Assembly: GCF_032062105.1 (NCBI RefSeq)
Contig: NW_026919344.1
Span: 1 to 64,000 of the forward strand
DNA length: 64,000 nucleotides
Reading direction: 5' to 3'
From: Saccostrea cucullata
Lineage: Eukaryota
Below, one piece after another: positions 850-19,714 of this stretch (position 1 is the stretch's first letter; every line of letters begins with the position of its first letter). The notes below the pieces were generated by a model, which did not search any database, was not told where the DNA came from, and saw nothing but the letters and a program-made list of their open reading frames with translations. The position numbers were made by a program, and so were the translations under genes.

Positions 850-920
850 CATGATGCTAAAACATGGAATGTATACATTGATAACAATTTGTTCCAAAGC
901 GAGCCGAAGTCAAAACAACT

Positions 921-2096
921 ATGGCTTCACATTGCAAAAACAAGTTTTTCCTAACAATTCTCACTGTGGCTAGTTTGACATGGACAGTGACGTCAATGCA
1001 ACGAATAAGGAGCTGTTATAGCCCCGTAAAAGGTTACATTTTTTGTTCATTTACCATACATGATCAGTGGAACTTTGTGTACTTTAGATCGTGGCTGGAT
1101 TCCTTAAAAAGTCCGGTAAAGCATGTTGAGCTGAACCTCCAATGCCTTGGTAGCGGCTCCGTTTACCTTCCGTGGCCTATGAGAGCTCGTGGTCTTAAAA
1201 AGTTTCATATGAAGAATTGTAACATTAAAGGATACTTTTCCGAATATAATAAAGACCCAATATATCCGGATACCCTTACTGATATTTCAATGATTGACTG
1301 CACCATAGAAACTGATGTTAATTCAAACATTCAAAGGACTCTGCTTACCCGGGTATCAAAATCCTACAACTGTGGCCAGCAGACGGTCAGGAGTCACGTG
1401 ATGAGGAATATTTCGTTTTCCTTTCTACCTACCTCGTCCCCTCCTCCCCTTAAAGATCTAGACAGAGCGTTCTCAGCTATGCGTCGACAGTCGAGGAATC
1501 GTGAAAATGCTTGTAATTACCACAGCTTATTCCATATGGAAGAATCACAGAGTGACAGTGTTTCTTCCATTCATTTTGACGTTATGACAGATATTTCAGA
1601 TTATCCAAACCTGAAGACATTCAATTTTTCTTCAAATCTTTTGACTCATTTGCCGAGGCACCTTAAGCAATGGCACAAACATTTTCCAGCCTTAGAAATT
1701 CTCGATTTGTCAAAAAACCTTCTTCGAAATTTTGCTTTCGAGAAGCCAGGTGTATCTGGGCGTCGAAAAATAATTTTTGTAAATCTACAGCATAACAGAA
1801 TAACTGATGTACCTAGAAATATAGCTTCTTACATCGATGGACAAGTTCCTGTGATTATTGATTTAAGAAATAATCCGATAAAATGTACTTACAATACGTT
1901 TGAACTTGTGAAATATCTCAACAAAATGAAAGAAATGTTCCCCGTTTTAAGTTTTATGGCAGACATCAAGTGCACATTATCCACTATATCAAAGAAATCA
2001 AAACCACTGCAAAATCGCAATGATAAAGTATCCGAAAATGAAAATTCCAGTAGATCAAAATTTCTCCAACTGTTTAATTTGTTTGGTTTTAAGTGA
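921..2096 (+). CDS. Secreted Toll-ectodomain-like leucine-rich-repeat protein, paralogue 1 (single exon, no TM/TIR)
   Basis: 391-aa ORF with a hydrophobic N-terminus. LRR motifs LKTFNFSSNLL, LEILDLSKNLL, VNLQHNRI and IDLRNNPIKC. Shares the Cys-rich N-terminal block (FRxWL, PWPMRAR, KNCxI, YPD, CGQ, CNY) with the ORFs at 29.2 and 45.9 kb. Confidence 0.85.
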   Translation: MASHCKNKFFLTILTVASLTWTVTSMQRIRSCYSPVKGYIFCSFTIHDQWNFVYFRSWLDSLKSPVKHVELNLQCLGSGSVYLPWPMRARGLKKFHMKNCNIKGYFSEYNKDPIYPDTLTDISMIDCTIETDVNSNIQRTLLTRVSKSYNCGQQTVRSHVMRNISFSFLPTSSPPPLKDLDRAFSAMRRQSRNRENACNYHSLFHMEESQSDSVSSIHFDVMTDISDYPNLKTFNFSSNLLTHLPRHLKQWHKHFPALEILDLSKNLLRNFAFEKPGVSGRRKIIFVNLQHNRITDVPRNIASYIDGQVPVIIDLRNNPIKCTYNTFELVKYLNKMKEMFPVLSFMADIKCTLSTISKKSKPLQNRNDKVSENENSSRSKFLQLFNLFGFK

Positions 2097-6050: not shown

Positions 6051-6998
6051 AACATTGCATGGATATTGACGTTTCACTGTCATTGAAGGAAGTAATTCTT
6101 TGACCAATCATATAAATTAATCAAATGCAAATTCTTTTCCGAAATTTCATTTGTCCTAAAATGAAAAACTTTGATTCAAATTTTGCAGTGATTTGATTGC
6201 ATGATTTATCTTGTAAATTAGTTTGATGTATCTTGTAACATATTATTATGCATAACATACACTCTTTGAAGTACTGAATTCATTAATATTTCTTGACACG
6301 ATGATTGGACAAAAACATTTGAAGAAATTTGATTTTAACACTTGGACGATGTCAAAAGAATGATAAAGAAAATTATCAAACATTTACAACAATAATTTCT
6401 GTCAATATCTTACGATTTCCGCAAATGGTTTCTTTTGTTTTATACATTAAACTATAAGTATTTGTGATAAAATACTGTTATTTATTGACAAGGAAAGCCT
6501 GAGTTGAAAAGAATTTGTTTTACAAGAATAAAAGTAAGTCAAAGAAAAAATAAATTGTCGAAATTTTTTTTTATATTACTCACCTCTTACCTTCACGTTT
6601 TACCATAATCATAAAGAAAATTTTTAAAATAAGTATGTCAATGCTATTTACAAGATTACGAGAATTTTTTTGCTTGAATTCAAAAGAAATCATTTCAAAC
6701 CACAGTTTATAACCCCTAACCACCTTTATTATACTTTTACCTTTGTTTTGACATTTATGAAGAATAATCGAAATTTATCATTTTCTAATATTTAGATCGA
6801 GTGCAAAAAAGGTAAATTCTACCAAATAGATGCTAATATCCATTTGAAATAAAAAACCTGTTTATTATGGTTACTCAGATGTCGACTTTGAGATTGAAAC
6901 AAACAAAAGAAAAATACGTATTCTCATTACTTTTAAATGTTTATGCTAGTATTTGACTTTCATTAAAACTGGTTTTGAAGGCCAAGAGTTGATAGAGC

Positions 6999-8219
6999 TG
7001 TAGCGGGCTAGCGCTCTATGCCCGCTGCCCTGGGTATGGCTACTCCCAAATAAGTATGACGGTAAATTAGAGGGGAGGGAATGGCCGGCCTCCACCCCTT
7101 TTAGACACCAAGGCAGTCATTAAAAAGATATAAAAATGTACTCCAGCAAAATAAGAATAGATAAGAGAAAGAGTTAAATAACTTGAGATGATGGTGTATT
7201 CAGAGATAGAACTAATTAACCAAGACAACAAAAATTAATCAATAATCGAAAATCACTATAAAATAATTGGCTGCAGTCGTCTGTACAAAAATACTCTAAT
7301 CAAAAATAATTAACTTTCCCCAATTAATTAAATTCCAAAAAATATGCAGATCAAGTACTAAAATTTTATCAGATAATTCCTATTCAGTGAATAATTAATT
7401 TGTCTAAGTCTAAAATTTCCAATAAAAATCTAGAGAAAATAGACCTACATCTTCCTAAGAAAGAGAAAATGGCTGGAGTCCCCGTTGAACAACGGAACTC
7501 TCCTTATATACTAACAGGAAACGGATTCCGTTCCAAACTAACGTAATCTGATGAAAACTAACGGAATATCCGTTCAAAGAAAACGGAGAAACTTAACAGA
7601 AAATAGTTCCAAGACATAAAAACTATTATTTCTGAACACAATATTAAAAGACAATATAAGTTTAATTCATTCACAATAATAAAAATAAATTATTTACCTT
7701 GGAAACGTAATAACTAAATATTCAGCGTGTCAAGTCGGCGAAATAATTGGCCCGGCGGATCCAATAAAATACGCCGGAAGTATACCACAATGCATAGCGA
7801 AGACAAAAAAAATGTAAACAAGACGACTGGTAAGACAACTTCAGTTTGCAGCCAAATAAACACATTTACAATCGTAATACAGGTAACATATTAAATTACA
7901 TGTAATTTAGATAATGATTGTTCAATATATATAACAAGAAAAGAACCCTTTATAAGTGATTTACAGTACATAACATCATGTATCAATATGCATGTCAACG
8001 TAAAAATAGGCCAACACGTGTTTACATCTTAATATCAACTGGAATACTTTTTTTTTTGAATACAATATCATACGGAAATATGAATAGTTCCGACGGTATT
8101 TATAAAAGATACAACCATTATCTTCATTTCTTATTTAAATATATATAGATAATACTTAAAAATGCTCAAACACTCTCGTAGTTACAATTAGGGGTCGTAT
8201 CAAAAATCAAAACATTACA
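6999..8219 (-). repeat. 3' LTR
   Basis: Direct repeat of 16674-17896; abuts the PPT. Confidence 0.95.
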
Positions 8220-8232
8220 CTTCCCCCCACTT
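8220..8232 (-). promoter_or_regulatory. Polypurine tract (PPT)
   Basis: Minus strand reads AAGTGGGGGGAAG immediately before the TGTAAT start of the 3' LTR. Confidence 0.9.
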
Positions 8233-8601
8233 AAAGTTTCATGTCCCCATGAAACACAAAAATATAAAAAAAATTCAATAACAACAAACTTTTATAACAA
8301 GTTATAACGTATAATACATACCGCAATCAGTGAACTCACTGCATATAATGAATACATCATTCACCCTACTCACAACTTTCAATAAGTACAATTAAAAATA
8401 AAATTTATGAACATCTTTCAAAATATGGCACATAATTTGTAAAAGTTAAAAACCACCCACCAACCCATCTAAACTGTCAAATTAATCCCGGTTAAATCCA
8501 AATGTACATAATCAATTAACACACTAAATAATCTAAGATTAACAATAAAAATAAACATCCATATTACATTCTGATAATTAATATCCTATCAACTAAATTG
8601 T

Positions 8602-9981
8602 TCACTTTCTAAATCTCTTCACGGGCCCGTAATTTTGAAAAGTGGCTGGTCTGCGGTAATTCCTAATGGGTGATCTCATGATTCTTCTTGGAGGTGCTTC
8701 ATCTCTTAAGTTTCGGTCAGGCGTTCTCTGTCTTCTTGGGGGTACATCATCTCTTAAGTTTCGATTATCCCTAAGGCTTCTCAAGATGTCTGTTTGTACT
8801 TGTAATTCATGATGGATATTTCGCAAAGAATTCTGCAGATGGAACATATGGTTGAGCACTTCGAACATCACCCTTGTTGGTGACATGTCCCTCCTTTCTT
8901 CTGGTCGGGTCTCATCCCTGATTTGGCTCCTCCTTTGTTCTCCGGGCTCATCTCGATTTCGATTCCTCCCCGGTTCTACCTTCTCTTGATCAGGCTCTTC
9001 TTGGTTTCGGTTCCTTCTCCGTTCTATCCCCTCTTGATCAGGCTCTTGTTGACTTTGATTCCTTCTCGTTTCTACCTTCCCTTGATCAGGCTCTTGTTGA
9101 CTTTGATTCCTTCTCGTTTCTACCTTCCCTTGATCAGGCTCTTGTTGACTTTGATTCCTTCTCGTTTCTACCTTCCCTTGATCAGGCTCTTGTTGACTTT
9201 GAGTCCTTCTCGTTTCTACCTTCCCTTGATCAGGCTTCTTTTGAACAGGGGTTTCCACTTCTCTGGTTGTAGTAGAGAACGTAACTGCCTCCTCGATCTC
9301 CTCCTGTGGAGTATACGCAGGAGTCGAAATACTAGCCGATTCTTGATCCTCCGTCAAGAAATTGAAAAGCACATCGTCCGGATCTTGAAGATCCAGCAGA
9401 TCCGGGAACGGCGGGGCCATGATGGTGTGACTTGTCAGAGGGCTGGGAACAGACACCACTGCTGTGGCGGCCACCGGTGAAGGACGAGGGGGAGGAGGAC
9501 AGCTGGAGGTAGATAACAGTTGAGGGGCAGGTACTACTTCCGAGGGAGGACAGCTGGAGGAAGAGGGCGTAGATGGGTGGCTTGGGAGGTCGGATCCTGT
9601 CTTTTGTATCCTTCCCATCCAGATCCTCCTGGACTCCTCCCTGCTTAATTTCTCGAAGTGAATATCTTCAGTCGCCACGATCCCCTCCTTGTTCCTGTTT
9701 AGGTAGAATTCCTCCGCCTCTGGAAGCTTCCCTTGTCTCAGCAGGCCTTCCCTAGCCTCTTTGTGTTTGGCGTAGTTCTTGATGTGTTCTTTAAGCTTTG
9801 TTTCTTCGTCCGTCTGGAAATGACAAAGGCTACAATAATACGGGATGGAATCCAGTGGAATGTGGTATTTGTAAATGTGGCCAATTACATATCGCTTCTC
9901 CCCAACCTGCTTATCACACAGTAGGCATCTATACGCCCTACCCCGCTTCAGTATTTCTTTAGAGACCTGTAGGTCAGCCAT
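8602..9981 (-). CDS. Retrotransposon accessory ORF3: two C2H2-type zinc fingers, Pro/Ser-rich and acidic region, 16-aa repeats, coiled-coil-like segment, Arg-rich tail
   Basis: Uninterrupted ORF with first ATG at 9981. Motifs CLLC-x12-H-x4-H and CSLC-x12-H-x6-H; C-terminal PVKRFRK. Same strand as gag-pol, located between IN and the PPT. Confidence 0.85.
   Translation of the reverse strand: MADLQVSKEILKRGRAYRCLLCDKQVGEKRYVIGHIYKYHIPLDSIPYYCSLCHFQTDEETKLKEHIKNYAKHKEAREGLLRQGKLPEAEEFYLNRNKEGIVATEDIHFEKLSREESRRIWMGRIQKTGSDLPSHPSTPSSSSCPPSEVVPAPQLLSTSSCPPPPRPSPVAATAVVSVPSPLTSHTIMAPPFPDLLDLQDPDDVLFNFLTEDQESASISTPAYTPQEEIEEAVTFSTTTREVETPVQKKPDQGKVETRRTQSQQEPDQGKVETRRNQSQQEPDQGKVETRRNQSQQEPDQGKVETRRNQSQQEPDQEGIERRRNRNQEEPDQEKVEPGRNRNRDEPGEQRRSQIRDETRPEERRDMSPTRVMFEVLNHMFHLQNSLRNIHHELQVQTDILRSLRDNRNLRDDVPPRRQRTPDRNLRDEAPPRRIMRSPIRNYRRPATFQNYGPVKRFRK
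8940..9240 (-). repeat. 48-bp coding tandem repeat in ORF3 (QQEPDQGKVETRRNQS), six units plus a degenerate flank
   Basis: Anchor TTGATCAGGCT at 8986, 9034, 9082, 9130, 9178 and 9226. Confidence 0.92.
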
Positions 9982-10658
9982 CTGCAAAATAAGGTTTTAC
10001 AATAAAAAAATATCTTGAAGTTTAAATTCAACACATTATCCCCCCTTGTATTCTTTAGTGAAATATCTACGTGACGACTGCAGCTCTTGTACATGCTATG
10101 CATAATGTGTGACGATTCAATATTTCACCTATGATGTATTTGCTTCTTGGATCTTCTAAATATTCTCCTAAAAGACTTCTTTCTGCAAATACCCGTGATT
10201 AGGGAAACTCCAGAATGCGTTTGGCAAGTATTATCATATTAATTAGATATTGACTAGAAGGATAACAATATTTATCTATTTTAATATAAGATGAAGAAAT
10301 CCATAGGAAGAGCCAACAGTACATGATCCGGCAAAGTAACAATCTCCACAGACGTCACAAAGCCCACTCCGACAACATCCAACTCCAGGAACCAGACGAG
10401 AAGTAGTTTAAATATAAAATTTCTTCTTTCCTCTATATTTTACAGATACACCTATTTTACTTTATTTTATTATTATTTTTTTTTAATAAGAAGAACAACG
10501 CCCCTTGGGACTATATAGAATTAAATCTGATCATATTCAGAGACTCTCATACAAAATGATCCACCTGTATTACAACTGGAAGAGAACCACCATTTATTAA
10601 ATTTTATATCCTTGTATTTCGTAGGAAGAATAATTCAGGAGAAAACATCCGTACGTAT

Positions 10659-12030
10659 CTAGTCATGATAGGGCTTAAGCTTGTCATGATGTATAACTTT
10701 CTGGGTACGCTTGTCAAGGGATTTCACTCTGTAAGTAAGATCTGAGATTTTCTCCACAATAGTACAAGGTCCCCAGTAACAATTACTAAGTTTCCCTGTG
10801 TCGGATTCATTTAGAACCCAAACTTTGTCTCCAACCTTGTAGTTATTGAGAAAAGTTTTCAGATTATAGAAGTGTCTTTGTCTCTCTGCAGAGCTATTAA
10901 AGTGCTGTCTAGCTATCTTGTGTGCTTGTTGTAAGCGATCCCTTAGTGATTCCACATATTCCCCATAGTCTACCACAGAGTTATCTTCCTTTGTTCTACT
11001 GCCAAAAATGATCTCTGTAGGAATTCGCACTTCGCGTCCCAGCATCAAAAGATTTGGTGAAATACCTGTTGATTCGTGTACACTTGATCTGTATGCTGCA
11101 CCAAGGCATCCTAAATACAAGTCCCAGTCTGTTTTGTCATCTTTGATATAGCACTTAATCATTTTGAGGAGTGTTCTATTGAACCTTTCAGTTTTCCCAT
11201 TGCATTGAGGGTGACGTGGGGTAGTTCGCGTCTTCTTTATTTCAAGAAGTTCACATAATTCATGAAAAAGGTTACTTTCATAGTTACGACCTTGATCTGA
11301 ATGTATTGACTCTGGACAACCAAACCGACTTATAACCTCATTTAATAGTACCCTAGCTGTTGTGACTGCTGTCTGATCTGGAATAGGAAAAATTTCAACC
11401 CAGTTACTGAAATGATCAGTTGCCGTTAAAATATATTTGTTTCCCCTTGGGGTCTCTGGCAATGGACCCAGTATATCAGTGGACAACCTGTCCATAGGAG
11501 CTCCTACAGTCATGCATCCTAAACTTGCTCTCGGTTTGTGGTATGGTTTCCTGTTTTTCTCACAGACTTTACAACCTGACACATGAGCTGCAATATCCTC
11601 TTTCATTTCAAACCAGAAGAAATTCCGAGAAACTTTATCTTGGGTCTTTTTCCTTCCCAGATGACCACTCAGTAAATTGTCATGTGCTAAGGTAATTACT
11701 TCCTTCCTTAATTTTCTGGGGGTTACAAATTGCAAGTGAGATCCAGAGTTGTCTTTCTTGTGAAATTCTTTTAGTAATAGTCCATCTTTAATTTGAAGAG
11801 TGTCAAAGATATGCCAGTAGTATCTAACAGCTGGTGTTTGCATTAAAATTTCTAACCTATCAGGCCTAGTCTGGTTCTTCACCCATTCATACACGGGACC
11901 TATGTCTGGGTCATTTAGTTGATCTTTCTGTAATTGACTTCTACCGTATTTTGTCCAAAATGTAGTATAACCCTTCTCTTTGTTCTGTGTTTGTTGTCTA
12001 GTATTCACTGCCCTGATTTGTTGATCCTGC
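10659..12030 (-). CDS. pol: pol 3' part: integrase (out of frame with upstream pol)
   Basis: HHCC (HDNLLSGH...CKVC), D-D-E core (TDILG, SDQG, TERFN), GPY/F-like WGPCTI. No chromodomain. The frame change maps near the G7 run at 12030-12036. Confidence 0.92.
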
Positions 12031-14960
12031 CCCCCCAAGATCACATGCCTCCAAACTTTGGCCAGAAGCCTGGAAACAGGGATCTTGTTCCATGCTGGAT
12101 TTCTGTAAGAAAGAACTACACATTTCAAAAGATCTCTTCCGACATTTATTGCAAGGTCCACATTTTAAATATTCTAAGTTGTCTGTTTCAGGACAAGTAC
12201 AGTCTGCAGGATTTTCACATCTGCTCATAGCATCCGCATTCCCATGCTTGTGACCTGGGCGATATTGTACTGAAAAATTAAAGTAAGAAAGAATTTCTAA
12301 CCAACGGGCAATACGCCCTTTTGGTTCCCTGAGTTTGAATAACCAGACAAGTGCCTGATGGTTTCGCACTGTAAATCTCCGTCCAAGCAAATATTGCCTG
12401 AAATACTCTACAAAATATCTTAGAGCAAGTAATTCTTTGTCGGTAATACAATAATTCTTTTCTGACTTATTTAATGAACGACTCCCATATGCAATAACTT
12501 TTTCAGTGCCATTCTGTATTTGGGACAGGACGCCTCCAATTGCTACATCACTAGCATCTGTGTCTAGGATATATTCTCCTTCATCTAAAGGGTATGCCAA
12601 AATGTTAGGACTAGAAAAGGATTCCTTTAACTGTGTAAATACTTCTTCGCATTCCTCTGTCCAAATGAATGGCCTCCCTTTTTTAGTTAGTTCCACTAAA
12701 TGTCTTACTAGTTTAGCAAAATCTTTTATAAATTTCCTGTAATAACTCCCCATCCCTAGAAGTTGCCTAATTTCAGTAACCGTGGTTGGGCGAGGCCACT
12801 GTAAAATCTTTGAAGTATTATCGGGATTAGGCAGCACTCCTTCAGCTGATACCACATGGCCTAAAAATGTGACACTTGTTTGGAAAAGATTACACTTTTC
12901 TGGCTTAAGTTTCATTCCAGAACTTTTTATTCTTAAAAATACATCTTCAACTCTTTTCAGGTGCTCCTGGAAAGATGATCCAAAAACAACAATGTCATCG
13001 AGATAGATGATACAAGTCTGCCAGTTTAATCCTTGCAAAACAAGTTCCATAAGTCTCTGGAATGTGGCACAAGCTGTACTTAAACCCATAGGCATTGTAG
13101 TAAATTCGTAAAGTCCGTATTTGGTAATGAAGGCCGTCTTAGGAATATCTTCCTCTTTTACTGGTACCTGGTGGTATCCGGATGTAAGATCAAAAGTAGA
13201 AAAGTATACAGCTCCTCGGACTGTATCTAAGCAGTCCTGAACTCGAGGAAGTGGAAATGCATCCTGGCGAGTTACTGTATTAAGACGTCTATAGTCAATA
13301 CAACATCTGGTTTTTCCATTTTTCTTTTTAACTAATACTATGGGACTAGCCCAAGGAGAACTGGACTTTCTAATTATTCCTTGTTCCATCATTTGTTTGA
13401 CAACTTTTTGTTCCTCTTCTGCAAATGCTAAAGGCACTCTTCTTGGAGGCTGTCTAATAGGCTTGGCACTCCCTGTATCAATTTCATGATGTACAAGTGT
13501 AGTGACTCCTAAATCGGTATCGTCTTTTGAAAAGATAGACTGATAATTAGAGAGTAGATCTGCAATTTCTTTGCATTCTTCATGAGTTTTGTTTTGAATT
13601 GCTCTGTTATATAATTCTAAAAGATGATCAGGAACAATTGACTCTGAAGAGTTGTCTCCCTTGTCAGAGTGATCTACTTGTAGTTTCCTAACTTGTTCTC
13701 TACTTAATTGATCCTTGTTTTCTGACGACAAGACTTCTGTAATATTTAAGGGATGGACAAGTTCTGCTTCTCCTAAAACATCATCCTGCTGTATCTTGGA
13801 TTCTGTATTGAATGGATTTAAAACTCTAATTTTTGCTGAAATTGTATTCTCCATGTCTGTCAAACAAGAAGCCATTAAAAGAGGAAACCGATTATTGAAA
13901 TCACTTGTAGGTTCTATACAAAAGATAGTACTCTGTAAATCCTTGTCAGACTCAAATCTGTCAATAAAAACATCTATCAGCTTCTCACAGTAAGCCGGAA
14001 TGACATAATCATCTGCTGCTATAACCCTCCTGGTTTTGTCGAGTGTTTGTCTAAATTCAATTTCTGTTCCTCCAAAATTGATAGTATTATCATGCAAGTT
14101 TATATTGACTGGTCCATTTTCTGGTTTTAACAGTATATCTAATCCTAAGAGTGCTTGGTCCTCTATTTCTGCCACAATTATCTCCTCCTGGCAGGTCTGA
14201 TGACCAAGTTGAACTTCAAAAATGGCCTTTCCAAACTCTTTCAGTGGTTCTCCACTTACACTTGTTAACAATGTAGACTTATTTAACTTTGGTCTCTGGT
14301 CTTGAGGAATTCTCTCATAAGTTTTCTTTGATATAATGGATCTTGTCGCACCAGTATCTGTAGTCCACACCAAATCTACTCCTTGTACAGATCCATTTAT
14401 ATATACTCCTGGACAGCTATTGATTTGTCTTAAAACACTAGTAACAACATCCGTGCAACAACTCCTATTAAGTAGTTCAGCTGCTTCTGTATCAAGCATC
14501 TCACTTGATGTAAGTTGAGTGTCAGACTCACTCATATTAAGTAATTCACCGGCATTTGTATCAAGCATCTCACTTGATGTAAGTTGAGTATCAGACTCAC
14601 CATATGTCTGAGTTTCACAATTAGGGTTAACAATGGGCACCACATCACAGTCCACTAAACTGTCTCCAAGTGTGTCCAAATAACCAACCATCCTATTTTC
14701 CTCCACTTTACAAAGTGTCCGCTGATCATGAGATTTACAAGGCCCACTACCTATACTCTCAGCATCATAAAATATATCTTCATCTAAATCGCAGTGATCT
14801 CCCTTAATTTGTTGCAAATTATCCTCTACTGCCTCTGTGCTTCCAGACAAATCAAAGCAGGTATTTTGCTTCTCAATTATACAACAATTTTGAAAAGTTT
14901 GGCCATCCTTAAAATTCAACCGGGTCATCCCTTGGCCCTCAGAGCTGACCCTTTCTAGTT
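12031..14960 (-). CDS. pol: pol 5' part: aspartic protease, reverse transcriptase, RNase H
   Basis: DTG protease motif; RT motifs SPWASP, CIDYRRLN, DLTSGYHQ and YLDD; RNase H TDASD...KELLA...NADAMSR. The frame is -1 relative to gag and stays open across the gag stop. Confidence 0.93.
14466..14600 (-). repeat. 69-bp in-frame tandem duplication in the acidic pre-protease region of pol
   Basis: ESDTQLTSSEMLDTxAxELLN occurs twice. Confidence 0.85.
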
Positions 14961-14964
14961 TGAC
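14922..14964 (-). promoter_or_regulatory. Putative gag-pol -1 ribosomal frameshift signal
   Basis: G TCA AAC directly before the gag TAG, a 6-nt spacer, then the stem GGGTCA/TGACCC. Confidence 0.55.
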
Positions 14965-16571
14965 GAAGATTTAAATTCAGCAGCTCTAGGATTAAGTCTA
15001 CTCTCCACATTTCCATTCTGAACCTTCTTTTCGCTTGAACAATTCCTTGCAAAATGCCCTTGTTCACCACAGCGGTAACATATCAGGGGGTGCTTCTGTT
15101 TACGGGGCTGTTCTATGTTTGAAGAGGATTCTGAGGAGAGGACTTCATTTAAGATGTCCTTTAGTTCTGCTCTGGTTATAAAATCAGAATTTTTCTGACT
15201 CTGTTTGACTCTACTGCCCTGTTCAGGAGTTTGTTTTTGTTGACCTTCTGTTTCTTTAGGATTCATTTTAGGCTTTGTGAAAATTCTAGGATTTTTGTCT
15301 GTGGCCTTTGGAGAGCTAGCTGGTTTCATCTGTTGACCTACTTGTCGTATTTGTTTCCTTTTGTGATAGCGGTCATTTTCATCATCTGCTCTGGGGTACC
15401 TAGTTGTCTCCTCATACTCAATAATAAACTTGACAGCTTCCTCAATGGTAGAGGGATCTTTGTTTAGCTCGACATAAATCCTAGCCTTCTCATTCATGAG
15501 ACCTAGTAAAAACCGTGAAACTAGATCCTCTTGTCGTGTAACATGATCTCTATTTGGGTAAGCCTTACTGTAGAGGCTTTTTAACGCTGCACCATAAGAC
15601 TGGGCAGATTCTCCATTTCTCTGGTCCCTTCTCCTGAATTTTGTCTGAAAGGTCTTATGAGATTCATAAACCCCAAAACGATTCCCAAGTTCCCTTCTCA
15701 GTTTCCTGTAGCTTGTCAAAATTTCTGAACTTAACTCCTCAAAAACAAACTCGCCTGCTATGCCTTGTAATCTCGGCAAGAGCTGTCCTAACTTTTGTTT
15801 GTCTGTCCATCTGTTGTGACTGGCTAGAGCCTCAAATCTATTGATGTAGGCTTTCCAACTTTCATCTGGGTCTCCTTTGAAAGCAGGTAGTTTTACTGAA
15901 ACTTGTTTTTCTTTGAAAATCCTGTTTGTAGAGACAGAACTTGCATTGTCACCTGAGTCAGACCCATCACTTGACTCATCACTGTTTGAGTCCTTGTTGG
16001 TACTCTTGTTGAGCATACTTTTTGTCTGTGATTTGTTGTGTTCTTTATTGACATGGGGGTTTTCTTTGAAATCTTTTAAAGTAGTTTTGAAAATATTCCC
16101 TATGGTCTCAGTCATCTTGCTGAGTGCTCCATTTATCATTTGAGCAAATGTTTCTAACATATTTGTTTGGCTTTGATTTATTGAGTTTTCATTCTTGTCA
16201 GGATCTTTTCCTTCATTTTGAGTATTCCTATCTTGTGTGAGGTTTGAGGATCTTGACATTCTTTTAGTGTATGTCTTGTTTCTCTTGTTCTTAGAAATGA
16301 GAGGACTTGCATTTGAAGATCTGTTGACTTTTTGTGGGGGTTGTACTATAATTTCAGGATACAGTACATGTACACCCTCTGTGTTTGAATGATCCTCTTT
16401 GTTTGAATGATCCTCTGCATCTGAGTTGCATGTGGAGTTGTCCTCATCATATTCTGTTAAAAATTCCTCCTCACTTTCTCCTGTGAAATTTTCTACTTCC
16501 GTGGGACAGATTATTTGGTTTGTCTCAGTGTCCATTTGTTCTCTCAAAGCTGCCTGGCGTCTTGTAAACAT
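14955..16571 (-). CDS. gag: Gag (capsid-like domain and CCHC zinc knuckle)
   Basis: First ATG at 16571 (MFTRRQA). Capsid-type region KLPAFKG...WKAYINRFE...W; knuckle CYRCGEQGHFARNC. Confidence 0.92.
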   Translation of the reverse strand: MFTRRQAALREQMDTETNQIICPTEVENFTGESEEEFLTEYDEDNSTCNSDAEDHSNKEDHSNTEGVHVLYPEIIVQPPQKVNRSSNASPLISKNKRNKTYTKRMSRSSNLTQDRNTQNEGKDPDKNENSINQSQTNMLETFAQMINGALSKMTETIGNIFKTTLKDFKENPHVNKEHNKSQTKSMLNKSTNKDSNSDESSDGSDSGDNASSVSTNRIFKEKQVSVKLPAFKGDPDESWKAYINRFEALASHNRWTDKQKLGQLLPRLQGIAGEFVFEELSSEILTSYRKLRRELGNRFGVYESHKTFQTKFRRRDQRNGESAQSYGAALKSLYSKAYPNRDHVTRQEDLVSRFLLGLMNEKARIYVELNKDPSTIEEAVKFIIEYEETTRYPRADDENDRYHKRKQIRQVGQQMKPASSPKATDKNPRIFTKPKMNPKETEGQQKQTPEQGSRVKQSQKNSDFITRAELKDILNEVLSSESSSNIEQPRKQKHPLICYRCGEQGHFARNCSSEKKVQNGNVESRLNPRAAEFKSSSN

Positions 16572-16648: not shown

Positions 16649-16666
16649 ATCCCACTTCTGACACCA
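16649..16666 (-). promoter_or_regulatory. Primer binding site complementary to the 3' end of tRNA-Leu
   Basis: TGGTGTCAGAAGTGGGAT, 7 nt inside the 5' LTR; complementary to ATCCCACTTCTGACA+CCA of tRNA-Leu(CAA/CAG). Confidence 0.9.
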
Positions 16667-16673
16667 AATAAAA

Positions 16674-17896
16674 TGTAGCGGGCTAGCGCTCTATGCCCGC
16701 TGCCCTGGGTATGGCTACTCCCAATTAAGTATGACGGTAAATTAGAGGGGAGGGAATGACCGGCCTCAACCCCATTTAGACACCAAAGCAGTCATTAAAA
16801 AAGAAATAAATGTACTCCAGCAAAATAAAAATAAATAAGAGTAAGAGTTAAATAACTTGAGATGATGGTTTATTCAGAGATAGAACTAATTAATCAAAAG
16901 AACAAAAAATAATCAATAATCGAAAATCACTATAAAATAATTGGCTGCAGTCGTCTGTACAAAAATACTCTAATCAAAAATAATTAACTTTCCCCAATTA
17001 ATTAAATTCCAAAAAATATGCAGATCAAATACTAAAATTTTATCAGACAATTCCTATTCAGTGAATAATTAATTTCTCTAACTCTAAGTCTAAAATTTCC
17101 AATAAAAATCTAGAGAAAATAGACCTACATCTTCCTAAGAAAGAGAAAAAGGCTGGAGTCCCCGTTGAACAACGGAACTCTCCTTATATACTAACAGGGA
17201 ACGGATTCCGTTCCAAACTAACGTAATCTGATGAAAACTAACGGAATATCCGTTCAAAGAAAACGGAGAAACTTAACAGAAAATAGTTCCAAGACATAAA
17301 AACTATTATTTCTGAACACAATATTAAAAGACAATATAAGTTTAATTCATTCACAATAATAAAAATAAATTATTTACCTTGGAAACGTAATAACTAAATA
17401 TTCAGCGTGTCAAGTCGGCGAAATAATATGGCCCGGCGGATCCAATAAAATACGCCGGAAGTATACCACAATGCATAGCGAAGACAAAAAAAATGTAAAC
17501 AAGACGACTGGTAAGACAACTTCAGTTTGCAGCCAAATAAACACATTTACAATCGTAATACAGGTAACATATTAAATTACATGTAATTTAGATAATGCTT
17601 GTTCAATATAACAAGAAAAGAACCCTTTATAAGTGATTTACAGTACATAACATCATGTATCAATATGCATGTCAACGTAAAAATAGGCCAACACGTGTTT
17701 ACATCTTAATATCAACTGGAATACTTTTTTTTTTGAATACAATATCATACGGAAATATGAATAGTTCCGACGGTATTTATAAAAGATACAACCATTATCT
17801 TCATTTCTTATTTAAATATATATAGATAATACTTAAAAATGCTCAAACACTCTCGTAGTTACAATTAGGGGTCGTATCAAAAATCAAAACATTACA
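16674..17896 (-). repeat. 5' LTR
   Basis: Direct repeat of 6999-8219. Minus-strand TATATAAG at 17183-17190 and AATAAA at 16869-16874. Confidence 0.95.
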
Positions 17897-19714
17897 GAGC
17901 TGTGAGGAAGTAATATGACAGAAATACGACATGCATACCGGGAACTCAGTACAAAATACTGAATACTCCCTCATTGCAAATAAATTAAACAAATGTATGG
18001 TTACCAATTGGCGCTTCAGAACACTATTGGGCTACCTAACTGAAGTAAGTTGACTCCTTTCAATCAATTTAACATTTAACAAATCAACTTGACAGCAGAG
18101 CAATGATGGACCTCTTAATACGTCAGATGTGGGATCAGGTCCCATGGAAGAGTAAGATCCGAAAATCTTCATTCAACCAAGAATTGCACCTCAATTGCTG
18201 AATACATTTTCTCAACCGGTCACAATTGGTTTGTATGATACAGGTCATATTCCTCTTTTTAAATCATTAGTGTACAATGCATTAACAGTTTATGATTATG
18301 ATAACTATACCCTTATAAATTCCAAAAAATGACAATATTAAAAATAAGTAGGGATCAATTCCCTTTGGTTTTCTCCTGAATGACAGATAAAGTTTATTCT
18401 TACATCTCTTAAAACTTAAAATAATGAAACATTTCACAGATTTAATTAACTTTCATATTTTTTCCAAGAATTTTTTTTAATTTTACGATAACCGATATTG
18501 CATCAAATAAGCATCGTGGAATATGCACCTCAGACCTCAGGAAAGGTAAAACTCAAAAAGTTATTCGAACATCCCATAAATCAATCAAGAGAAAAGAAAA
18601 AAAATGATTACTATTCCAATCACAATAACTCAATTTTATTTCGTTTATTCATTAGCTAGTTAAACATCAGAAATCTATAATTTTTATCAGTTTAGGAAGA
18701 GAACTGCATTAATTTAGGGACAATATGATAGAAATATTTCATATACAGTCGATGAATGGAGCCAAAAAAATAAATAAAGGAACAAATATGCATACAGCAA
18801 ATATAGTAAATTTCTAAAACACTATTATAAACCATGTTGGACATTAAAGGCTATAGAAGAATTTATTAAAAGCTTTCATGTATTTTTCATTTCTATATGT
18901 AGAAAGACTTCTAATTTAAAAGAAAATATAAATGTTAAAAAAAGATCTGAATGTGATTTTTCATTTTGATTTTACTTTTGTAATTGATATTTCGGCAAGT
19001 TAATGTTATCAATTTTCACTTACATAAAAAATAATGATTAATTTAAGATAATAATAACTCTGAAGACCTCTCTCATCAAAACACACAAAAATGTCAGCGA
19101 CACAAGCAATATACTAGTAAATAAAATTTTCAGATTGCCTTGTCCTTTCTTTAGTAAAAGAAATATAGCATATATTAAAAACAAAGGACTAAAAAAGTAA
19201 ACAAACAAATAACACAACAACATTTAAAAAAAAATCCCATACATTTACACGTTTACATGTTTAATTAAAATGTTTTAAAACTTTACACAAAATGAATCCG
19301 GACCTTTGTGAAATGCGTCTGTCTGTCTTGAGTTCATAGGTAAAGGTTGATTTACATGATTGAAAGAATTAATCAACAGTAATTAATCAAGGCTAAGTGA
19401 TAAATCGTATAAGCAAATATTTGTTTTAAAAAGCGCACACATCAATGGAATTCAGATGATAAAGTAGCATTTCTTTATCGAAAAAAAAAATCAAAATTGC
19501 ATTAAGATTTTGGAACTCCTAGAAATTCTTGAAATATATAATTGTATCATTAAAATATTTGGGGAAAAAATGTAAATATGAGTTATATTGATGATTTATA
19601 TATTGTTTTACGTCAAATTGACAGTATTTTAGTCATTACAAATTTTGCGATCTTTCCTTTAAATGAAACCTGAAAATAACAAGCATAAATCGAGCTCAAC
19701 ATTTGATGAAACAA

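What the first reader, a model, noticed from the sequence alone, without database searches (positions are those of the whole stretch)
8602..9981. Gypsy retrotransposon carries a zinc-finger nuclear-regulator-like gene in the env position
Seen: an intact ORF of about 459 codons between integrase and the PPT, on the sense strand. It has two N-terminal C2H2-type fingers (C-x2-C-x12-H-x4-H and C-x2-C-x12-H-x6-H), a Pro/Ser linker, an acidic-hydrophobic patch (FPDLLDLQDPDDVLFNFL), charged 16-aa repeats, an amphipathic coiled-coil-like stretch and an Arg-rich end with NLS-like KRFRK. There is no signal peptide or TM helix, so it is not Env. It is visibly more GC-rich than gag-pol and remains open although pol is damaged. 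Known: complex retroviruses encode transactivators at this position (foamy virus Tas, HTLV Tax), and some DNA transposons encode sequence-specific anti-silencing proteins (Arabidopsis VANC). Inference: this is a self-encoded transactivator, anti-silencing factor or RNA-binding factor, making the element a 'complex' Gypsy.
Basis: partly seen in the sequence, partly recalled or inferred. Interest (0 to 1): 0.88.

Follow-up and report, generated by a model that had tools for sequence, protein, structure and literature searches.

The report
Zinc-finger third gene of Gypsy retrotransposons
A whole lineage of Gypsy-type jumping genes in this animal genome carries, where retroviruses keep env, a conserved two-zinc-finger gene that is likely made from a spliced RNA and likely acts as a self-made regulator that switches on the element's own promoter, a role otherwise known mainly from complex retroviruses.

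Summary
Observation confirmed. The 459-codon ORF (8602-9981, minus strand) lies between integrase and polypurine tract of a complete Gypsy element (LTRs 97.2% identical, 4-bp target duplication, tRNA-Leu primer site). It is a lineage trait, not a recent capture: 19 of 25 closest integrases in this genome are followed by it, and dN/dS of its finger domain is 0.04-0.24 in relatives. The two fingers form one confidently predicted 130-aa domain with no clear solved match. A splice acceptor precedes the ATG in 18 of 19 subfamilies, and a donor lies just behind the LTR TATA box. Neighbouring Gypsy clades carry other zinc-finger ORF3s, one with a BTB domain. Best reading (0.5): a trans-acting DNA-binding activator of the LTR, whose promoter carries a seven-copy TCCGTT array. 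Main rival (0.25): a Rev/CERV-like RNA exporter. Expression and binding are untested. No description was found in 10 paper searches; Repbase could not be searched. The scan noted other non-env ORF3s in other genomes, none alike in sequence.

The parts
16674..17896 (-). 5' LTR (TG...CA)
   Evidence: 97.2% identical to the 3' LTR over 1229 columns
17160..17280 (-). Array of 7 TCYGT/AACGG motifs around the LTR TATA box; candidate response elements (also at about 7480-7600 in the 3' LTR)
   Evidence: 7 copies, 0 of 200 shuffles of the best window reach it; one of only two blocks shared with the otherwise unalignable sister LTR; function inferred
17183..17191 (-). TATA-like box (GTATATAAG)
   Evidence: same place in related LTRs
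17123..17131 (-). Predicted splice donor GAT|GTAGGT, 63 nt behind the TATA box
   Evidence: a donor-like site at TATA+55 to +64 in 9 of 15 LTRs of the clade; predicted, no RNA
16649..16666 (-). Primer binding site complementary to a tRNA-Leu 3' end
   Evidence: the complement lies in tRNA-Leu(CAG) genes of this genome (2 of 3 loci scanned)
14955..16571 (-). gag, open (PNMA-like capsid region, one CCHC knuckle)
11998..14970 (-). pol, protease-RT-RNase H part; the frame breaks near the RNase H/integrase boundary
10659..12164 (-). pol, integrase part, in another frame
10151..10616 (-). Conserved non-coding spacer between integrase and ORF3; candidate cis element
   Evidence: 75% identical to L033 over 489 columns while four-fold sites are 29% (IN) and 42% (RT) identical; no shared ORF and no folding signal, lowest z -1.6
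9982..10010 (-). Predicted splice acceptor (pyrimidine tract + CAG) directly before the ORF3 ATG
   Evidence: 18 of 19 subfamily representatives against 17.5% of background ATGs
8602..9981 (-). ORF3, 459 aa
9592..9981 (-). ORF3 aa 1-130: two-zinc-finger domain with a closing S-x3-W helix
   Evidence: invariant G14 C19 C22 H35 H40 P47 C50 C53 H66 S117 W121 in 10 subfamily rows; AlphaFold pLDDT 92.6, pTM 0.79
9349..9411 (-). ORF3 acidic-hydrophobic patch (aa about 191-211), candidate activation or export motif
   Evidence: similar patch after the domain in most of 18 full-length relatives scanned; role inferred
8897..9280 (-). Six 48-nt repeats in the disordered linker, private to this subfamily
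8749..8880 (-). ORF3 long amphipathic helix (aa 368-411), coiled-coil-like
   Evidence: pLDDT about 87-95; heptad stretch in relatives
8605..8748 (-). ORF3 Arg-rich basic tail
   Evidence: net basic tail in 17 of 18 scanned proteins
8220..8232 (-). Polypurine tract
6999..8219 (-). 3' LTR
6995..6998 (.). Target-site duplication GAGC (other copy 17897-17900)

Best explanation
ORF3 is an inherited, selected accessory gene of one Gypsy clade that is likely translated from a spliced subgenomic RNA and likely works in trans as a sequence-specific activator of the element's own LTR promoter. Shown: position, ancestry with pol, purifying selection, repeated loss in copies that kept inserting. Predicted: a donor about 60 nt behind the TATA box joins the acceptor in front of the ATG, removing PBS, gag and pol; the two fingers and a closing helix fold into one domain. 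Inferred: the protein enters the nucleus through its basic tail, oligomerises through the long helix, binds the short repeats around the TATA box (TCCGTT here, TCCGTA or TCTGT in related subfamilies) and recruits transcription machinery through the acidic patch. That would give positive feedback like foamy-virus Tas, which ORF3-less copies with the same array could exploit.
For: Position: 38 of 66 other finger-domain loci have same-strand IN upstream, 33 within 1.1 kb; 19 of 25 closest IN hits carry ORF3 and form one clade (SH-aLRT 98). RT and finger identities correlate (Spearman 0.69, 78 non-independent pairs). dN/dS 0.04-0.24 in all 10 estimable of 14 pairs. Splice signals. The family profile's best solved relatives are DNA-binding C2H2 proteins (CTCF, HIC2, Ikaros; best single stretch E 2e-4). 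Architecture kept across subfamilies. Finger helix residues differ between subfamilies. TATA-adjacent arrays differ by subfamily: TCCGTT with the FQTDEE finger (window, L031), T(C)CGTA with the EKxKLxA finger (L033, L041), TTCTGT x8 in L064. ORF3-less sisters keep the array. A related ORF3 type next door has a canonical Kruppel finger above the Pfam cut-off.
Against: No expression or binding data. Structurally, finger 2 with its H-x6-H spacing and following helix matches RNA-binding matrin/JAZ-type fingers best, though weakly (Z 3.3-3.9, about 40 residues). The -1/+3/+6 residues of this copy (E,Y,G; E,K,E) are not a typical DNA-reading set (recalled code). TCCGTT/CAACGG also fits the host Myb consensus (recalled). 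Motif and finger type follow the same lineages, so their match is not independent evidence. The TCYGT core is absent from 8 of 17 clade LTRs; some arrays lie behind the TATA box (L079, L081, L069) and some promoters have CCAAT boxes instead. Arrays at 0 of 200 shuffles also occur in 3 of 12 LTR stretches outside the clade, and 59 of 382 locus blocks hold 5 or more TCYGT. No estimable dN/dS pair includes this copy.
Confidence: 0.5

Rival explanations
1. Rev/CERV-like RNA factor: ORF3 binds the unspliced genomic RNA, perhaps at the conserved spacer inside the predicted intron, and promotes its nuclear export or limits its splicing.
For: An element with a donor and an acceptor must export intron-containing RNA; CERV, made from a spliced RNA of the LTR element Cer1, does this (PMC10309623, passages). 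Finger 2 resembles matrin/JAZ RNA-binding fingers. Arg-rich tail with RS/SP dipeptides. The spacer is constrained. The sisters lost spacer, acceptor and ORF3 together.
Against: No stable fold in the spacer; structural matches all Z < 4; sequence profile favours DNA-binding fingers; no likeness to CERV, whose finger is a C4 loop; L034 keeps spacer and ORF3 without gag-pol.
Confidence: 0.25
2. Anti-silencing factor in the manner of VANC: it binds element DNA and keeps repressive chromatin or methylation off, without activating directly.
For: Fast divergence of finger helices and of LTR arrays between subfamilies; action in trans fits repeated loss in young copies; some arrays lie inside the transcribed region.
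Against: No enzymatic or chromatin-reader domain; the acidic patch is explained more simply as an activation motif; cannot be told from the best reading by sequence.
Confidence: 0.13
3. Integration or particle cofactor: ORF3 tethers the integration complex to chosen DNA or helps it into the nucleus.
For: An earlier unchecked scan note reports a two-finger module fused to integrase in another genome; coiled-coil-like helix and basic tail.
Against: Here it is a separate gene with its own splice acceptor; ORF3-less sisters inserted with normal 4-bp duplications.
Confidence: 0.07
4. A recently captured host exon or a neutral passenger.
For: Higher GC than gag-pol; lost in the four nearest sisters and in two other lineages.
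Against: dN/dS 0.04-0.24; kept across RT identities down to about 60%; the same GC contrast in all 6 subfamilies; long multi-finger proteins checked match only the fingers, not the closing S-x3-W helix (9 inspected; none).
Confidence: 0.03

Closest known systems
Foamy-virus Tas (Bel1) and HTLV Tax (recalled, no call)
   Same: Accessory regulator encoded 3' of the structural genes, made from spliced RNA, acting in trans on repeats in the LTR U3; Tas has a DNA-binding part and an acidic activation part
   Different: Those are retroviruses with env. Tas and Tax are not tandem C2H2 proteins; no homology tested or expected; activity here is unshown
CERV of C. elegans Cer1 (PMC10309623; passages read)
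   Same: LTR retrotransposon accessory protein from a spliced mRNA, nuclear, with a candidate zinc finger, leucine zipper and NLS
   Different: CERV is a 5-exon product sharing exons with gag, has a C4 loop and a G-domain-like part, has no homologues outside nematodes, and exports genomic RNA. ORF3 here is predicted to be a single coding exon with two C2H2 fingers
Non-env ORF3s of bdelloid rotifer LTR retrotransposons (PMC5408684; passages read)
   Same: Family-specific third ORF after pol, gained and lost repeatedly, said to be expressed from spliced messages; ORF3-carrying non-autonomous derivatives
   Different: Those encode DEDDy exonuclease, GDSL esterase, TM or coiled-coil proteins; the word 'finger' does not occur in the main text
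Errantivirus env (Drosophila gypsy type; recalled)
   Same: Same position and the same predicted splice logic
   Different: No signal peptide or TM helix; nuclear-type architecture
Tandem C2H2 proteins (CTCF, REST, Ikaros) and matrin/JAZ fingers
   Same: Finger 1 and the start of finger 2 match C2H2 profiles below cut-off; finger 2 with its helix overlays matrin/JAZ fingers
   Different: Only two fingers, H-x6-H in the second, and about 50 further conserved residues that are predicted to close one compact domain; no Foldseek match at E <= 0.001 in PDB or BFVD
Arabidopsis VANC proteins of VANDAL DNA transposons (recalled)
   Same: Transposon-encoded, family-specific, acts in trans on short tandem motifs of its own element
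   Different: DNA transposons of plants; different fold; anti-silencing shown there, untested here

Membership tests
Ty3/Gypsy (Metaviridae) LTR retrotransposon | LTRs with TG...CA, PBS, PPT, target-site duplication | tested here: met
Ty3/Gypsy (Metaviridae) LTR retrotransposon | gag, then pol in the order PR-RT-RH-IN | tested here: met
   Pfam
Named Gypsy clade (Mag, CsRN1, MolGy and others) | RT/RH tree placement with reference elements | not testable with these tools
   no named reference sequences on hand; PMC6238403 passages only
Env (errantivirus or retroviral) | signal peptide, TM anchor, fusion-protein fold | tested here: not met
   hydropathy maximum 1.13; no env family; model
Classical DNA-binding C2H2 (Kruppel type) | Cys2-His2 ligands with beta-beta-alpha layout | tested here: met
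   ligands invariant or nearly so in 34 rows; secondary structure
Classical DNA-binding C2H2 (Kruppel type) | score above Pfam cut-off, H-x3-5-H spacing, TGEKP linker | tested here: not met
   best E 8e-4, below cut-off; finger 2 is H-x6-H; the linker is longer but keeps P-[YF]-x-C
Classical DNA-binding C2H2 (Kruppel type) | sequence-specific DNA binding | not testable with these tools
   needs EMSA/SELEX/ChIP
Matrin/U1/JAZ RNA-binding finger | extended second helix and structural overlay | tested here: inconclusive
   Z 3.3-3.9, rmsd 2.1-3.3, about 40 residues; zf-C2H2_jaz E 0.03
Complex retroelement transactivator (Tas/Tax-like) | made from spliced or internally initiated RNA | tested here: inconclusive
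   conserved donor and acceptor; no RNA seen
Complex retroelement transactivator (Tas/Tax-like) | response elements in the LTR | tested here: inconclusive
   arrays next to the TATA box; the binder is unknown
Complex retroelement transactivator (Tas/Tax-like) | raises LTR transcription in trans | not testable with these tools
   needs a reporter assay
Rev/CERV-like export factor | structured response element inside the intron | tested here: inconclusive
   spacer conserved but no folding signal in 120-nt windows
Rev/CERV-like export factor | needed for export of unspliced RNA | not testable with these tools
   needs cell work

The most novel reading that the evidence does not exclude
A large invertebrate branch of Gypsy elements are 'complex' retroelements that encode their own zinc-finger transcription factors in the env slot (at least three types in this genome, one joined to a BTB domain). 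Each would co-evolve with a motif array in its own LTR and be exploited by ORF3-less free riders, making retrotransposons a mobile source of new zinc-finger regulators with matching promoters.
Probability: 0.35. Interest if true: 0.88.

Novelty: new variant of a known kind. Interest (0 to 1): 0.7.

Why it matters
LTR retrotransposons are usually treated as simple elements that borrow host transcription factors; self-encoded regulators are the mark of complex retroviruses, with CERV as a rare invertebrate case. A clade-wide, selected finger gene with predicted splice sites and a candidate target array gives a direct test of whether retrotransposons run their own transcriptional feedback. Natural subfamilies supply matched and mismatched finger-array pairs. 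Repeated loss in young copies makes helper and free-rider dynamics measurable in one genome. Finger and finger-BTB genes on mobile elements also bear on where new host zinc-finger genes and their binding sites come from.

Tried and rejected
RNA evidence: no RNA holder was listed, so no reads were laid. Three copies of the long helix: no answer, score 0.26 against a mark of 0.32. Fold searches gave no clear match. Atlas hits were unnamed or generic C2H2 clusters. Retrocopies of a spliced ORF3 RNA: upstream junctions of gag-pol-less loci were deletions or unrelated flanks, not donor-acceptor joins. A hidden ORF or stable RNA fold in the spacer: none. The AAG|GTAAAT donor at 17377: dropped because it lies upstream of the TATA box. 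Strict co-segregation of ORF3 with the whole LTR: not found, since the sisters join a window-like ORF3 tail to another LTR type. A fused longer form: none among 2458 candidates of 885-2525 aa, weak evidence. AACGG count in L001 was uninformative because that locus does not hold the promoter. The finger-domain tree alone had no starred branch.

Full report
The element. The finding lies in a complete LTR retrotransposon on the minus strand: 5' LTR 17896-16674, 3' LTR 8219-6999 (97.2% identical), target duplication GAGC, primer site 16666-16649 and polypurine tract 8232-8220. The primer site's complement is the 3' end of tRNA-Leu genes in this genome. Pfam gives gag (CCHC; weak PNMA) and PR-RT-RH-IN, the Gypsy order. 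Gag is open; pol breaks frame once near the RNase H/integrase boundary. The genome is 1.17 Gb. Its repeats remind me of an oyster-type bivalve; this is recalled, not tested.

The observation. The ORF is not chance (2 of 2000 shuffles reach 300 aa). Its openness alone says little in so young a copy, and its high GC is a family trait (6 of 6 subfamilies).

A lineage trait. The first 130 aa find 69 matches in the genome, a lower bound (150 of 191 candidates scored); these are 66 other loci. Of them 38 have same-strand integrase within 6.5 kb upstream (33 within 1.1 kb) and 40 have some gag or pol; the other 26 are fragments, contig ends or internally deleted derivatives. The converse test is stronger. 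Of the 25 integrase hits at 52% identity or more (this copy included), 19 are followed by this ORF3, 4 carry a deleted remnant, 1 is interrupted by another element and 1 ends with its contig. The 24 of them long enough for the tree form one clade (SH-aLRT 98, quick tree). Pairwise RT and finger identities correlate (0.69), although the finger tree alone is poorly resolved. Nei-Gojobori dN/dS for the finger domain is 0.04-0.24 in 10 of 14 pairs; one pair had no differences and three were saturated. The pairs were chosen among open frames, and none of the ten includes this copy. The rest of the protein gave 0.08-0.45 in 5 pairs, 1.18 in one, and one was saturated. Outside this genome, 19 of the best 150 representatives at 50% identity match the whole domain once; the others are long multi-finger proteins, and the nine inspected lack the closing helix. 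None has a useful name.

The protein. AlphaFold gives one confident domain for aa 1-130 (pLDDT 92.6, pTM 0.79, 34 rows), then disorder, a short helix in the acidic patch, a 44-residue helix (368-411) and a disordered basic tail. Besides the zinc ligands, G14, E28, P47, S117 and W121 are conserved, so the fingers are probably packed into a larger unit. The order fingers, acidic patch, heptad helix, basic tail recurs in most of 18 full-length proteins scanned. By sequence the family profile is nearest to DNA-binding C2H2 proteins. By shape finger 2 overlays RNA-binding matrin/JAZ fingers such as TUT1, JAZ and SF3a, but only at Z 3.3-3.9. Foldseek finds nothing at E <= 0.001.

Likely expression. 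The ATG follows a pyrimidine tract and CAG directly. An acceptor-like site lies within 21 nt of the start in 18 of 19 subfamily representatives (10 of this type, 9 of neighbouring types), against 17.5% of background ATGs. A donor-like site lies 55-64 nt behind the TATA box in 9 of 15 clade LTRs (a site anywhere in 130 nt occurs in 49% of background windows, so the position is what counts). The predicted intron removes PBS, gag and pol, the logic used for env. This is prediction only.

Candidate targets. This LTR and the sisters' LTR align only in two blocks, one of them the TATA region. It holds seven AACGG/CCGTT copies, several as inverted pairs (0 of 200 shuffles, best window chosen). Related subfamilies have other arrays at the same place: T(C)CGTA in L033 and L041, TTCTGT x8 in L064, TTCTGTC in L061, TCCAA in L043/L086. 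Against over-reading: the TCYGT core is missing in 8 of 17 clade LTRs; some arrays lie behind the TATA box; 3 of 12 outside LTR stretches also score 0 of 200; motif and finger follow the same lineages; and the array here fits the Myb consensus (recalled). A second cis candidate is the spacer 10151-10616, 75% identical to L033 while four-fold sites are at 29-42%, without ORF or folding signal.

Dispensable in cis. Three sisters 97% identical over gag-pol, and a fourth partial copy, share one deletion from window 10619 to about 8828 that removes spacer, acceptor and most of ORF3. The three complete ones have different target duplications and LTR pairs 97.4-99.6% identical, so they inserted after the loss. 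They carry another LTR type but keep the array. The opposite derivative, ORF3 without gag-pol, also exists (L034). This fits a product that acts in trans. It also fits a gene that such copies simply do not need.

Wider picture. I sampled 27 of the 113 more distant integrase hits (43-49% identity; chosen by hand, mostly long open frames). Thirteen are followed by another two-finger ORF (10 of one type, 2 with BTB, 1 long), one by a single finger-like motif, one by a decayed copy, and 12 by none detected. Some of the last are near-identical sisters of carriers. Whether these types share one origin is open: the profile match covers only the fingers.

Mechanism. I commit to a trans-acting activator of the LTR (0.5): acidic patch, oligomer-type helix, fingers that vary by subfamily, and promoter arrays that vary by subfamily. 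The Rev/CERV-like reading (0.25) rests on the splice logic, the matrin-like second finger, the Arg/Ser tail and the conserved spacer. Anti-silencing (0.13) cannot be separated from activation by sequence.

What is known. Ten searches listed no paper on a C2H2 ORF3 of Gypsy elements. I read passages only: PMC10309623 (CERV), PMC5408684 (rotifer ORF3s), PMC6238403 (mollusc LTR clades; 'ORF' and 'zinc' do not occur), PMC11952523, PMC6338049, PMC12440569 and PMC13228809. Supplements were not opened and may bear on novelty; so may Repbase entries and subscription journals, which are not in the library. Tas, Tax, VANC, Myb and the finger recognition code are recalled. Earlier scan notes pointed me to CERV and the rotifer paper; one reports a two-finger module fused to integrase in another genome. 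No note matched this sequence or genome.

Verdict. A real, old, selected accessory gene family of Gypsy elements, with predicted spliced expression and a testable target; function unproven. New variant of a known kind, interest 0.7.

Noticed in passing
L110-L113, L116, L120-L123, L134 (about 1.1 kb into each, behind IN): A second ORF3 type (about 210-250 aa): C2HC plus canonical C2H2 finger, acidic patch, TQT motif (dynein light chain site, recalled) and a conserved C-terminal strand pair; also preceded by an acceptor. Profile match to this ORF3 only over the fingers.
   Followed up: partly
L129:2075-2833:-, L131: Gypsy ORF3 with two finger-like motifs and a BTB/POZ domain (BTB_2, E 7e-16). 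The frame starts at an acceptor without its own ATG, so an upstream exon is implied.
   Followed up: partly
L136:1347-2729:+ and L114: Further ORF3 types: two C2H2 fingers plus about 400 aa of no known family (L136); a single finger-like motif (L114).
   Followed up: no
L097-L102, L109 against window 8828-10619: Four copies share one deletion of spacer and ORF3; the three complete ones have different target duplications and an LTR type unlike the window's, although gag-pol is 97% identical. The window element is a mosaic.
   Followed up: yes
L034: LTR-PBS-spacer-ORF3-LTR element with an open 479-aa ORF3 and no gag or pol: an ORF3-only derivative.
   Followed up: partly
L059, L076, L078: Derivatives that keep gag, protease and ORF3 but share a deletion of RT and most of IN.
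   Followed up: no
L119 vs L121; L117 vs L115: Independent losses of the second ORF3 type in near-identical sisters.
   Followed up: yes
window 885-2096 (+): 403-aa open frame with leucine-rich repeats below Pfam cut-off, probably a host exon.
   Followed up: no
window about 8240-8260 (-) and other clade members: A small hairpin (CATGGGGACATG core) just before the PPT recurs in several elements of this and neighbouring clades.
   Followed up: no
window 42783-43406: Long inverted repeat pair (216 and 92 nt arms), MITE or foldback-like.
   Followed up: no
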